Shown here in pieces: positions 45,855 through 55,560 of a DNA stretch of 64,000 bases. The notes under the pieces are model-generated. The model was not told the DNA's origin. It ran no database searches and worked only from the letters and a program-made list of their open reading frames with translations. The stretch comes from the human T2T-CHM13v2.0 reference genome, Homo sapiens: NCBI RefSeq assembly GCF_009914755.1, contig NC_060941.1. One strand, given 5' to 3'. Every line of letters begins with the position of its first letter. The stretch's first letter is position 1. Made by a program: the position numbers and the translations under genes.

Positions 45855-46127
45855 GGACTGCAATTCCCAGAAGCCGTCGCAGGCCCTCAGCATCCGGGAC
45901 ACTAGCAGCAAGGATCCCTGGGTATTGTGGTCCTGTGCTTTGCCAGCAACCCTCTGCCGACGGTAAAATTCCAGCCGGACATAGAACCACAACTCCCAGC
46001 AACCCCTGCTGCCGTGTGGGGGGTCTTCACGTTCTCGTGGCGCGGCGCAGGCGCACTGGGTCCTCGGCGCGGACCGCGCAGACTGAATAATAAAAGGGGA
46101 GCGGCGAAGAGGCAGGAAGACAAGACC

Positions 46128-46231
46128 ATGTCGAAGGGCCCCGGGCCCGGCGGCTCCGCAGCTTCCTCGGCGCCCCCGGCCGCTACCGCTCAGGTGCTGC
46201 AGGCACAGCCCGAGAAACCGCAGCACTACAC
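46128..46231 (+). CDS. UNK: Unkempt (CCCH zinc-finger/RING RNA-binding protein) first coding exon; the rest of the gene lies beyond the window
   Basis: GACCATGT start encoding MSKGPGPGGSAASSAPPAATAQVLQAQPEKPQHYT; donor TAC AC|gtacgt; CpG island. Confidence 0.93.
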
Positions 46232-47819: not shown

Positions 47820-52244
<4,425 letters not shown>

Positions 52245-53934
52245 TCATTGTTTTGACCCCATGAGAGGAAGTATACCTCAAAGACTAATCATGTCTTCAT
52301 GCCTTCAACTGCAGTGACTGCAGTCGGTTCTCAGACTTCTTAATTTTAATGCCCTCATGTTAAAGGAAAATGAAATTCTAGTTTAGTGAAGGTTTGCAGG
52401 AGTTTTCTGGCCACTTGGTGATTTCTTATAGGTCGACAGAGAATAAATACTTTATAGCTTCATCTATCTAGGCATCATTTAAATTTAGGACTGGTTTCCT
52501 GGGCATCGAATTAAACAAAGATAATGTAGCAATACTTCCATAGATAACTCTTTTCAGGCAGTTTTGTCAGTTTATGTATTACGTAAATGTCATTAACTTC
52601 ACTTGATTGCATCTGATTGTATTTTGGAAAATCCTGGACATGAACATGTATTTAAGTCATTATTGCAAATTACAATAAAATCGTGCATGCATTAGTAGAG
52701 TACTACTTGTTGCACAACAGAAGTCATTGGAAGCGTTGCTGAGCAACCTCAGTGAGAACGAGCTACATTACCAATAAACATTTCTGGATCTTATTTACTT
52801 GTTTATCAAGTAGAACTAATTTCTTGCAGGACAGAAATTAGGAGCTCATTGTAGCCTTCATTTAATCCCACAAAATCCCCGTTAAGTGTTAAGTGCCCTT
52901 GCTAAGGGTAGATTCTTAAACTTAACACCTAGTTGATATTTGCTATTATCTAAATTATTAAAGTCAAGATTTGCTTAATGGTTAAGTTTTTTTGTTTTAA
53001 TCCAGCTATGTTAGATACTAAAGAAGGCTTCCCCACAACCCATATGCATCTGCTTTGACTGGTGGTTTCTATCATCCTACAAAGACTGTGACTTATTGGT
53101 GAGGGCAGCTGGACAACTCTGAGAGCAACTTAGAGAAATCCATCTTGGGCACACTCTATAAAGGAGCTCCTTCTCTGCAAATAGCACCCCAGATAAGTGC
53201 ACAAAAGCAAGATACCCTCGTGGACCTACACGTCCTCCCGCTTTTCAACACCCTGATGCCTGAAGGTGAGGTCTCTTTCCTGTGTGTCTTAGAAGCCATG
53301 AGCACGCTTAGGTAACTAGAGCCCTGCCACAGCCTGAGCAGCACAGCACACATCTGCAGGCTTTCCTGCCAGACCTTTACCTAAAGGTAATTTTTCTCAT
53401 TAGGAGAGACTCCAGGTCAAGAGTGATGACAGTAAGGTTGCATTTAAAGCTGCATTACATTAAATAGTGGACTGGTCTAGTGATTATTTTCCCACACTGG
53501 GCAATATTTGCTTAATGATTAAGTTTTTTTGTTTTTGTTTTTGTTTTTTTTAATCCAGCTATGGTTGATACTAAAGGAGGTTTTCCCACTATCCGTATGC
53601 ATCTTCTCTGTTTTGAGATTGCAACTATGGACAGTTATGGCTAATCCTAGTAGATTGTCTTCCCTTTTAACATCTTGGATGAATTTGGGTCACACTAATT
53701 GTTATGTGAAGATGGATGTTGAATGTAAGTTTCTCTGCCATTCTTAGCCAATATATAAAAATTACATTAGCCTAATTGCTAACAATGCCAAGAATTTAGG
53801 TTTACTATCCCTCTGGACAATGTAGCTTCTTGTTTTCTTACCATATAGATAACTCTATAGATTCACCCCAGCCAGTCATCTTAAAATACCTGCATAGGCA
53901 GCAGAGGTATCTGTGGAGAAAGTGCATGGGATAA

Positions 53935-54095
53935 TAGGTACAGGGTGATTTTGGGAGTGATGGAAATATTCTGGAATTAGATATGGTGAAGGTTACATAA
54001 TGTGGGTGAATACACTAAAAACCACTGAAATGTACAAGTGGTGAGTTTGAGTGCTCTCTGAATTATATCTCAAATTGTTAAAAAGTTAATTAAAA
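53935..54095 (+). mobile_element. L1MB-like 3' end fragment
   Basis: GGAGTGATGGAAATATTCTGGAATTAGAT...ACTAAAAACCACTGAA...GAATTATATCTCAA. Confidence 0.65.
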
Positions 54096-55560
54096 AATCA
54101 GTGTATATGAGTCCCTCTTACCATAGAGAGGGCTTCAAGCGCATGGCCTATTGCCAAGGCTCAGCAACAGTGGTTCAGTGTGGGAAAGCCTGTGGTTTGC
54201 GCAAAGCTCCTTGGTGCCCTTTTCCCAGCTTTCTCAGTGGCTTAGGCCCTGTGTATCTATTCTAGTTGAATGCCGCCATGTTATAAGTCTGTGGAGATGT
54301 TTTGAGATAAGAAATACGTATTCAGAAAACAAGTTTGAGACTCTTAGGTGCTGGTAATTATACTTTACCTTGTCTCCAACTTGATAGCCATTCCAGGGAA
54401 CAAGCAGATTTTTAGCAATGCCTTCATAAGATGAATCATGTCTACTTCCTGGGGTGGGTGGGAGGTGGAAGAGAAGTTTGCTGTCCTGCTAAAATGTAAT
54501 AGAGTCCATTCTTCAGGTATCGTGAGTGTTTTAAGGTTTACATGGGCATTTCTTTAAGGACAGGCCATGTGTTTTAGGCATTTAAAATGATATCAATGGC
54601 TATACTATATTAGTTCAAGTAATCACAACAAACTTTTTATTATTTCTCTATAAAATCCCTCAACTTTCACCCCTTTTTTCTTTGCCAGTGTGTAGAATTT
54701 GACAGCAGTATCAAGAGCTGAGGAGAAGGAGAAGATGGAAAGGAGTCTAGCAACTTAAAAATCTCACAGCATTCTCTGTGAGGTGACCTTTTTTCCTGTT
54801 GGTGGCTCAATTTCTTTAGGACATAAAGAAGATACTGAGGCCTGTGACAGCCTGTGACAGTATCATCAAGTCGTATCTGAACTTATTGAACTGTTTCCTC
54901 CCCTTCCTTATTCTTTATTCACAGTTTGCTTTTCATGTGCATAAGTTGACTCATTTGTTTCCTGTTAGCATTTGAAACACCATATAGCCACCATAAGTCC
55001 TGACAAAATGACTTTTAATAAGGAGGGGGAAGGTCCATGTCCCACCTTCCTATGAAATTTTGGCCTATTCACAAGTCTACCCCCACATAAGAGAAGTAGT
55101 TATGTTCTGTAAAGAAGAGGTTGATAAAAACCTTTAGCATGGTGTTTTGTGACTTAGAAGTTTTAAGTAGTCGTTCTTATATCTAAGCATTTATTAATTT
55201 TGGTAAGAACATTACTATACGTTTCTGATGTCACTTTTACTGTTAAGAGGTGCCAGGGATCTGGTGACCTGTCACTTCAGGATTTGTGTGAATCAGACCA
55301 TCTAAATATAATATAAATTAGAGACTGGTACTTGTATTTCCTGATTAAAAACAAAGTAACGTCTGTTTTACTATTGAAGTAAGAGTACTTTATAATGAAT
55401 ACAAAAATGTATATTAAATATCCAGTAGAGCATGCTAAAGTGAACATTTCTGTTTTTATTTCAGCAACTTATTTTATGGTATTGTAGTTATGGCCTGTCC
55501 GAAACTCTCTGACATATTCTAAACAGCTTTCAGAGAGTCACTGAGGCTTATTTGCTACTA

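What the first reader, a model, noticed from the sequence alone, without database searches (positions are those of the whole stretch)
52965..53724. Tandemly duplicated splice-acceptor + 27-codon micro-ORF module in UNK intron 1
Seen: two diverged copies about 550 nt apart, in repeat-free sequence, share ATTTGCTTAATG(G/A)TTAAG, a poly-U tract, TAATCCAG|CT and an ATG. Copy A (ATG 53008) reads MLDTKEGFPTTHMHLL*; copy B (ATG 53561) reads MVDTKGGFPTIRMHLLCFEIATMDSYG* (TAA 53642-53644). Over the first 16 codons there are no indels and 38/48 nt are identical. Six of the 10 differences are at third positions and five codons differ synonymously (GGC/GGT, TTC/TTT, ACA/ACT, CTG/CTT, CTT/CTC). Each copy has a good donor downstream (A: TTG|GTGAGG 53098 or AAG|GTGAGG 53265; B: AAT|GTAAGT 53724). 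Inference: this pattern suggests purifying selection on a small paralogous peptide pair, MxDTKxGFPTxxMHLL, encoded out of frame with UNK on cassette exons, i.e. a possible unannotated micropeptide system inside an RNA-binding-protein gene. The sample is small and the codon bias alone is not statistically decisive.
Basis: partly seen in the sequence, partly recalled or inferred. Interest (0 to 1): 0.8.

Follow-up and report, generated by a model that had tools for sequence, protein, structure and literature searches.

The report
Duplicated non-productive UNK exon start
A roughly 100-base piece holding a splice acceptor and the start of an exon was copied once inside the first intron of the human UNK gene, giving two already annotated alternative exons that break the UNK reading frame; the small ORF in the second is already listed as a young translated ORF, so the case is largely ordinary.

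Summary
Window 52965-53057 and 53502-53610 are two copies of one segment: 81 of 93 aligned bases are identical, with a 16-nt T-tract indel. The flanks show no similarity, and there is no third copy in the human genome. Each copy is a branch-point/poly-U/AG acceptor plus the first 52 nt of a RefSeq-annotated alternative UNK exon. Spliced to exon 1, both exons stop the UNK frame within 3-5 codons.

The "unannotated micropeptide" reading is only partly right. Copy B's ORF is already in the GENCODE Ribo-seq ORF catalogue as c17riboseqorf151. It starts at ATG 53256 in exon A, is spliced 53265>53559, and carries a "replicated" type name. A published evolutionary analysis calls it young (Primatomorpha) and not alignable further out, with primate PhyloCSF -6.89 and 0 mass-spectrometry studies. 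Copy A's ORF is not among that table's three UNK rows, and its ATG lies inside the truncated UNK ORF.

The synonymous excess between the copies is real but weak (dN/dS about 0.15; simulation P 0.03-0.06). The acceptor half (2/41 mismatches) is better kept than the ORF half (10/52).

Most likely this is a lineage-specific duplicated non-productive exon start with incidental translation.

The parts
46053..46231 (+). UNK exon 1. It holds a single ATG, at 46128, and ends with two bases of a codon.
   Evidence: Hub annotation; one search finds one ATG in the exon, at 46128.
52965..53005 (+). Copy A, intronic half: ATTTGCTTAATGGTTAAG block, T-rich tract, AATCCAG acceptor. The block contains a yUnAy-type branch-point candidate TTAAT at 52975-52979.
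   Evidence: This half has 2 of 41 mismatches to copy B. The branch-point assignment is inferred from the recalled consensus.
53006..53265 (+). Alternative exon A, 260 nt, which shifts the frame. Read from exon 1, the UNK frame stops at TAA 53019-53021.
   Evidence: RefSeq exon in the hub table; one search gives a 39-aa truncated product.
53008..53058 (+). Micro-ORF A, MLDTKEGFPTTHMHLL*. Its ATG lies upstream of, and is overlapped by, the truncated UNK ORF.
   Evidence: It is not among the 3 UNK rows of the Ribo-seq ORF table.
53256..53265 (+). First 10 nt (ATGCCTGAAG) of the catalogued ORF c17riboseqorf151, at the 3' end of exon A.
   Evidence: One search gives hg38 chr17:75792010-75792019, which is the window coordinate plus 75738754. 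Exon and intron lengths match.
53502..53558 (+). Copy B, intronic half: the same block, a T-tract longer by 16 nt, and the AATCCAG acceptor.
53559..53724 (+). Alternative exon B, 166 nt, which shifts the frame. Read from exon 1, the UNK frame stops at TGA 53566-53568.
   Evidence: RefSeq exon in the hub table; one search gives a 37-aa truncated product. Use of its donor is shown by the chr7 retrocopy.
53559..53644 (+). Second part of c17riboseqorf151 (MPEA-MVDTKGGFPTIRMHLLCFEIATMDSYG*).
54689..55444 (+). Alternative terminal exon joined to exon B in a processed retrocopy. ATTAAA lies about 25 nt before the end.
   Evidence: The hub table lists exon 54689-55439. Searches show the exact 53724|54689 junction and the retrocopy ending at 55444.

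Best explanation
A short local duplication of about 93-109 nt copied a functional 3' splice site (branch-point block, poly-U tract, AG) together with the first 52 nt of an exon to a place about 540 nt downstream in UNK intron 1. The published alignment-based classification places this in the lineage leading to primates. As a result the intron carries two alternative exons, A (53006-53265) and B (53559-53724). Both shift the UNK frame and give a stop 3-5 codons after the junction with exon 1. Some of these transcripts end at an intronic poly(A) site near 55440. They are therefore non-productive or short UNK transcripts. The shared ATG-led reading frame is a passenger of the duplication. In transcripts carrying A and B, ribosomes that finish the 39-codon truncated UNK ORF can start again downstream. 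The first longer ORF they meet (ATG 53256, spliced into exon B) is the one picked up by ribosome profiling as c17riboseqorf151. Shown here: the duplication, its limits and uniqueness, the frame consequences, splicing of the exon B donor, and the catalogue entry with its published age class. Inferred: reinitiation as the route of translation, the absence of a peptide function, and the dating.
For: Duplication limits and lack of flank homology come. Only two copies were found in the genome, by BLAST with the 111-nt core (2 candidates, 2 scored). A degenerate back-translated DTKxGFPT pattern gave the same two places (2 forward and 0 reverse hits, against 1+1 for the reversed control). Both flanks are single copy. 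The hub table lists exons 53006-53265, 53559-53724, 53006-53724 and 52152-53265. UNK-frame stops fall at 53019-21 and 53566-68, and after the first stop the next ATGs are 53044 (4 codons) and 53256 (31 codons across the A>B junction). The catalogue row reads c17riboseqorf151, dORF, 'primatomorpha - young', mode 'unknown', 0 MS studies, PhyloCSF primates -6.89, mammals NA. A processed retrocopy on chr7 carries the exact 53724|54689 junction and ends at 55444 (808 of 843 aligned bases identical). This shows that exon B spliced to the intronic terminal exon was a real germline transcript. The acceptor half is better kept than the ORF half (2/41 against 10/52 mismatches; Fisher P=0.06; P=0.009 that the intronic half would show so few mismatches at the exon half's rate). 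The ORF half's divergence (K=0.22) is of the order expected for neutral decay since an early-primate duplication (rates recalled). No RNA family or fold signal was found.
Against: The differences between the two ORF starts lean towards synonymous sites. NG86 gives Sd 5.5 of S 10.5 against Nd 4.5 of N 37.5, so dN/dS is 0.15. Fisher's test on rounded counts gave P=0.005, though the rounding inflates it. Random placement of 10 substitutions gave 4 or fewer amino-acid changes in 4.6-4.8% of trials. It gave that together with an intact ATG and no stop in 2.6-2.7% of trials, or 5.5-5.6% when the ATG was protected. In both copies the ATG sits directly after the acceptor, and copy B's has a good context (G at -3, G at +4). 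The primate PhyloCSF of -6.89 is only mildly negative for 32 codons, and the authors themselves caution about very short ORFs. I could not look at any non-human genome, RNA-seq or Ribo-seq data myself. How a 100-nt piece came to be copied 444 nt away is unexplained.
Confidence: 0.6

Rival explanations
1. The duplicated module is kept for an RNA-level role. The two exons would be regulated 'poison' or premature-termination exons that tune UNK output through nonsense-mediated decay or intronic polyadenylation, and selection would act on the splice signals and exonic enhancers rather than on a peptide.
For: Both exons give a premature stop far upstream of later junctions. The branch-point/poly-U/AG half is the best-conserved part (2/41 mismatches). 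The exons are annotated (hub table), and exon B's use is old enough to have left a retrocopy with K=0.043.
Against: No data here show regulated inclusion or NMD sensitivity. The published class says the region is not alignable beyond Primatomorpha, unlike the deeply conserved poison exons of splicing factors (recalled). UNK is known as a cytoplasmic translational regulator (recalled), so self-regulated splicing is not expected. One search for 'unkempt' plus 'poison exon' found 1 paper, a general review seen only in the search listing.
Confidence: 0.22
2. One reading: MxDTKxGFPTxxMHLL is a small paralogous peptide pair under purifying selection, that is, a functional primate micropeptide system inside UNK.
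For: Paralogue dN/dS is 0.15, with 6 of 10 differences at third positions; simulation P is 0.03-0.06. There are no indels over the 16 codons. Copy B's frame is reported as translated in a replicated catalogue entry. With the annotated Alu-derived exon 48072-48154 included, the UNK start codon also reads into this same frame.
Against: Primate PhyloCSF is -6.89, mammalian PhyloCSF is NA, the class is 'young', and there are 0 MS studies. Copy A is not in the table's 3 UNK rows, and its ATG lies inside the truncated UNK ORF. The two ORFs end differently (16 against 27 codons), and homology stops at codon 17. There is no other copy in the genome, and none in the UNKL gene. The sample is 10 substitutions, chosen after inspection.
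Confidence: 0.07
3. The conserved upstream block is a DNA-level element, and its duplication is unrelated to splicing or coding. The near-palindrome TTAATGATTAA / TTAATGGTTAA resembles a homeodomain, HNF1-type dimer site (resemblance recalled from memory).
For: The 18-mer is identical in both copies except for one base at the centre of the palindrome. Genome-wide, the pattern with up to 2 mismatches is about four times as frequent as its reversed control (434+435 against 112+120).
Against: The motif resemblance was not tested with any tool. The block sits exactly where a branch point is expected, 28 and 44 nt before annotated acceptors. The excess over the control may simply reflect AT-rich palindromic composition.
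Confidence: 0.04

Closest known systems
GENCODE/TransCODE Ribo-seq ORF c17riboseqorf151 (UNK, class dORF)
   Different: The catalogue ORF starts four codons earlier, at ATG 53256 in exon A, and crosses the A>B splice junction. In what I could read, the catalogue and the evolutionary study do not mention the paralogous copy A or the duplication; the mode of evolution is given as 'unknown'.
Evolutionarily young, non-canonical human ORFs on non-productive transcripts (Sandmann et al. 2023, PMC10032668)
   Same: Short, primate-restricted, negative PhyloCSF, no MS support, and sited downstream of a premature stop.
   Different: Here the ORF start came with a duplicated splice acceptor, so two related ORF starts exist 553 nt apart. 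Most young ORFs in that study (63.0%) were classed as arising de novo from non-coding sequence.
Poison (premature-stop) cassette exons of RNA-binding-protein genes
   Same: Alternative exons in an RNA-binding-protein gene that bring an in-frame stop soon after the junction.
   Different: The classical examples are deeply conserved and autoregulated (recalled). This pair is reported as not alignable beyond Primatomorpha, and nothing here shows regulation.

Membership tests
Catalogued translated non-canonical ORF (GENCODE Ribo-seq ORF) | ATG-started ORF of at least 16 codons that maps on an annotated transcript structure | tested here: met
   ORF B has 27 codons from 53561, or 31 from 53256 across the A>B junction. 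ORF A has exactly 16 codons on exon A.
Catalogued translated non-canonical ORF (GENCODE Ribo-seq ORF) | Listed with ribosome-profiling support | tested here: met
   This is met for copy B only. One search shows the row c17riboseqorf151, and one search shows that 'riboseqorf' names were given to ORFs called as replicated. Copy A is not among the 3 UNK rows of the 7,264-ORF table.
Conserved functional micropeptide | Coding-type conservation across species (positive PhyloCSF, or amino-acid conservation beyond primates) | tested here: not met
   Taken from published values, not my own computation: PhyloCSF primates -6.89, mammals NA, class 'primatomorpha - young'. No non-human genome was available to me.
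Conserved functional micropeptide | Purifying selection between the paralogues (dN/dS well below 1, significant) | tested here: inconclusive
   dN/dS is 0.15 on 10 differences; simulation P is 0.026-0.056 depending on conditioning.
Conserved functional micropeptide | Peptide detected | not testable with these tools
   The published table gives 0 MS studies for c17riboseqorf151.
Poison / NMD-coupled cassette exon | Annotated alternative exon with AG acceptor and GT donor | tested here: met
   Hub RefSeq exons 53006-53265 and 53559-53724; the AG and GT are seen; the exon B donor is joined to 54689 in the retrocopy.
Poison / NMD-coupled cassette exon | Premature stop in the host frame upstream of a later exon junction | tested here: met
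   TAA at 53019-21 lies 244 nt before donor 53265; TGA at 53566-68 lies 156 nt before donor 53724.
Poison / NMD-coupled cassette exon | Transcripts rise when NMD is blocked; inclusion is regulated | not testable with these tools
   No expression data were available.
Transposable-element-derived exon | Many related copies dispersed in the genome | tested here: not met
   Searches find only the two local copies. Searches show single-copy flanks. The one exact 18-mer match elsewhere (chr2) extends to only 25 of 28 bases.
Structured RNA element | Rfam match or unusually stable or covarying fold | tested here: not met
   0 matches at E up to 1; z-scores +1.44 and +0.16; 1 of 21 pairs has a double change, consensus energy -4.35 kcal/mol.

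The most novel reading that the evidence does not exclude
The 16-residue motif MxDTKxGFPTxxMHLL is a primate-born peptide that has been kept in two paralogous UNK exons by selection on the protein. It would be produced either by reinitiation after the truncated UNK ORF, or as the C-terminal tail of a short UNK N-terminal isoform when the Alu-derived exon 48072-48154 is included. That would make it a rare case of a young micropeptide that has already duplicated.
Probability: 0.07. Interest if true: 0.6.

Novelty: already known. Interest (0 to 1): 0.2.

Why it matters
Its importance is limited. The exons are in RefSeq, and the ORF of copy B is already in the public reference set of translated non-canonical ORFs, where it has been classed as young and unconstrained. 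That ORF's start, together with its splice acceptor, has a local paralogue. This explains the catalogue's 'unknown' mode of origin as, at least in part, a small intragenic duplication. It also gives a clean example of how copying about 100 nt can create a second alternative exon. If the weak synonymous excess proved real in a primate alignment, the pair would be a useful test case for early selection on new micropeptides.

Tried and rejected
Transposon fragment: rejected. The core and both flanks are unique in the genome. The chr2 18-mer match does not extend.

Larger tandem duplication of about 550 nt: rejected. Flanks on both sides align no better than shuffles (z -0.6 and 0.0).

Insertion with a long target-site duplication: considered, because the chr7 retrocopy has about 100-nt flanking repeats. 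However, the 444-nt spacer has no A or T tail and no parent elsewhere.

Structured RNA: rejected.

A third copy in UNKL or elsewhere: none found. The 27-aa protein search did not even recover copy A, so that particular search is insensitive.

In-frame alternative UNK N-terminus: rejected. None of the ORFs that stay open to the end of exon A or exon B is in the phase needed to join exon 2 (with phases worked out by hand).

Searches that led nowhere: earlier scan findings were not open. Three literature searches on UNK/unkempt with poison exon, microprotein or NMD terms returned no paper on these exons (listings only).

Not run: the search for homologous proteins and the protein atlas. The peptide is shorter than or near their lower limits, and micro-ORFs of this kind are rarely in protein sets. 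No vertebrate genome collection was available.

Full report
**1. The observation**

The repeat finder and a local alignment give two direct copies, 52965-53057 and 53502-53610. Of 93 aligned bases, 81 are identical, and copy B has 16 extra bases in the T-rich tract. The core alignment scores z=25 against shuffles. The 444-550 nt on either side of the copies align no better than shuffles, with z -0.6 downstream and 0.0 upstream.

ATG 53008 reads MLDTKEGFPTTHMHLL*. ATG 53561 reads MVDTKGGFPTIRMHLLCFEIATMDSYG*. Over the first 48 nt there are 10 differences, falling 1/3/6 on codon positions 1/2/3. Homology ends at codon 17, where copy A has TGA and copy B has TGT.

**2. Is it a repeat family?**

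It is not. A whole-genome BLAST with the 111-nt core found 2 candidates, both scored, and both are the local copies. A degenerate back-translated pattern for DTKxGFPT found the same two places, with 2 forward and 0 reverse hits, against 1+1 hits for the reversed-pattern control. A protein search with the 27-aa peptide found only itself, so that search is insensitive.

The 18-mer ATTTGCTTAATGRTTAAG has one further exact match, on chr2. That match extends to only 25 of 28 bases. Both flanks (52231-52964 and 53058-53501) are single copy. No copy lies in UNKL or anywhere else in the human genome.

So a segment of only about 100 nt was duplicated, locally. The mechanism is unknown.

**3. What the copies are**

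Each copy consists of three things:
- the last 41-57 nt of an intron, made up of a conserved block with a TTAAT that fits the recalled branch-point consensus, a poly-T tract, and AATCCAG;
- the AG|CT junction;
- the first 52 nt of an exon.

The hub's RefSeq table lists exons 53006-53265, 53559-53724, 53006-53724 and 52152-53265, so both acceptors and the donors at 53265 and 53724 are already annotated.

UNK exon 1 has one ATG (46128) and ends two bases into a codon. Joined to exon A, the UNK frame stops at TAA 53019-21, giving a 39-aa product. Joined to exon B, it stops at TGA 53566-68, giving 37 aa. Exons A (260 nt) and B (166 nt) both shift the frame. None of the ORFs that stay open to their 3' ends is in the phase needed to join exon 2 (with phase arithmetic by hand). 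These are non-productive exons with respect to UNK.

**4. Independent evidence that exon B is spliced**

A genome search with 52231-54688 scored 40 of 618 candidates. They were the query itself, one chr7 place, and 38 copies of an old interspersed repeat.

The chr7 place (L014 2207-3054, minus strand) holds window 53620-53724 joined exactly to 54689-55444. It has the following features:
- 808 of 843 aligned bases are identical, K=0.043.
- A short A run follows its end.
- Direct repeats of about 100 nt flank it.

It is a 5'-truncated processed retrocopy of a transcript in which exon B is spliced to the annotated intronic terminal exon (54689-55439). That exon has ATTAAA about 25 nt before its end. 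The transcript therefore existed in the germline some tens of millions of years ago; the dating uses recalled neutral rates. The retrocopy does not cover the shared motif.

**5. The ORF is already catalogued**

In supplementary file 1 of Sandmann et al. 2023 (PMC10032668), a whole-word search for UNK found three rows. I read that supplement's header and first part, and several passages of the main text. The middle row is:

- ID and peptide: c17riboseqorf151, MPEAMVDTKGGFPTIRMHLLCFEIATMDSYG*
- Position: hg38 chr17:75792010-75792019 and 75792313-75792398
- Biotype: dORF
- Conservation class: 'primatomorpha - young'
- Mode of evolution: 'unknown'
- MS studies: 0
- PhyloCSF: primates -6.89, mammals NA (column names)

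With an offset of 75738754, these coordinates are window 53256-53265 plus 53559-53644. The exon lengths (10 and 86 nt) and the intron length (293 nt) all match.

The other two rows are c17norep167 (the unspliced read-through from ATG 53256) and c17norep168 (further downstream). Copy A's ORF is not listed.

According to the paper:
- 'Young' means the amino-acid sequence is not conserved in non-primate mammals.
- 'Primatomorpha' is the oldest reconstructed ancestor with the intact ORF structure.
- Young ORFs as a class had PhyloCSF scores like untranslated controls.

The main text of the 2026 catalogue update (PMC13010147) states that 'riboseqorf' names were kept for ORFs called as replicated, and that 'norep' marked ORFs not replicated.

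**6. How it is probably translated**

In exon1+A+B transcripts, the only ATGs after the UNK-frame stop are 53044 (MHLL*) and then 53256. Reinitiation after a short 39-codon ORF is the simplest route to the catalogued ORF and fits its 'dORF' label. This step is inferred.

Copy A's ATG (53008) lies 11 nt upstream of that stop and inside the truncated UNK ORF. It is therefore poorly placed for either scanning or reinitiation.

One exception is worth noting. If the annotated Alu-derived exon 48072-48154 is also included, the UNK ATG frame runs directly into the MLDTK/MVDTK frame, giving products of 79 or 90 aa. I do not know whether that exon combination exists.

**7. Is the peptide under selection?**

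NG86 on the 16 shared codons gives S 10.5, N 37.5, Sd 5.5, Nd 4.5, and dN/dS 0.15. The other two frames give no such pattern. Fisher's test on rounded counts gave P=0.005, but that treats fractional sites as counts and rounds 5.5 up.

A direct simulation placed 10 substitutions (6 transitions, 4 transversions) at random on either copy, with these results:
- 4 or fewer amino-acid changes: 4.6-4.8% of trials.
- The same, together with an intact ATG and no stop: 2.6-2.7%.
- The same, with the ATG protected: 5.5-5.6%.

The signal is nominal.

Against a coding constraint, the intronic acceptor half has 2 of 41 mismatches and the exonic half 10 of 52. Fisher's test gives P=0.06, and the probability of so few intronic mismatches at the exonic rate is 0.009. 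If synonymous sites (pS 0.52) were the neutral clock, the duplication would be far older than the published age of the region, and the intronic half would need very strong constraint.

It is simpler to take the exonic 19% divergence (K 0.22) as roughly neutral for an early-primate duplication (rates recalled), to see the splice signals as the constrained part, and to put the third-position excess down to chance. The published primate PhyloCSF (-6.89) and the lack of MS evidence point the same way.

**8. Other readings**

No Rfam family matches, and neither copy folds better than shuffles (z +1.44 and +0.16). The two-sequence consensus fold is weak, at -4.35 kcal/mol with 1 of 21 pairs showing a double change.

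A regulated poison-exon role is possible but untested here. The palindromic core TTAATGRTTAA resembles a homeodomain dimer site from memory only.

Three literature searches returned nothing on these exons or peptides. The main texts of PMC13275300 and PMC11909976 do not mention c17riboseqorf151.

**9. Verdict**

The new detail is that the ORF start and its acceptor have a local paralogue. This accounts for part of the 'unknown' origin given in the catalogue.

Probabilities are about 0.6 for a lineage-specific duplicated non-productive exon start with incidental translation, 0.22 for an RNA-level regulatory role, 0.07 for a selected peptide pair, and 0.04 for a DNA-level element, with the remainder unassigned. 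Interest is low.

Noticed in passing
L014 2207-3054 (G000:C7:56678606-56679453, minus strand) compared with window 53620-53724 + 54689-55444: A 5'-truncated processed retrocopy of a short UNK transcript (exon B spliced to the intronic terminal exon). 808 of 843 aligned bases are identical. It is followed by a short A run and flanked by unusually long direct repeats of about 100 nt.
   Followed up: partly
window 48072-48154: An annotated alternative exon made from the tail of an Alu (CAGCCTGAGGGACAAGAGCAAAACTCCGTCTC plus an A-rich run). Including it puts the UNK start codon in the same frame as both micro-ORFs, giving predicted products of 79 or 90 aa. Whether any transcript combines these exons is unknown.
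   Followed up: partly
window 53928-54097: An old interspersed repeat about 200 nt downstream of exon B. 38 of the 40 scored genomic matches (of 618 candidates) hit this stretch, at 73-84% identity. The family was not named by any tool.
   Followed up: no
window 52973-52986 and 53510-53523: A near-perfect palindrome, CTTAATG(G/A)TTAAG, inside the conserved upstream block. The only difference between the copies is the central base. With up to 2 mismatches, the 18-mer pattern is about four times as frequent genome-wide as its reversed control. Its likeness to a homeodomain dimer site is recalled, not tested.
   Followed up: no
window 53256-53315: The same ATG 53256, read without splicing at 53265, gives MPEGEVSFLCVLEAMSTLR*. 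This is listed as the non-replicated Ribo-seq ORF c17norep167.
   Followed up: yes
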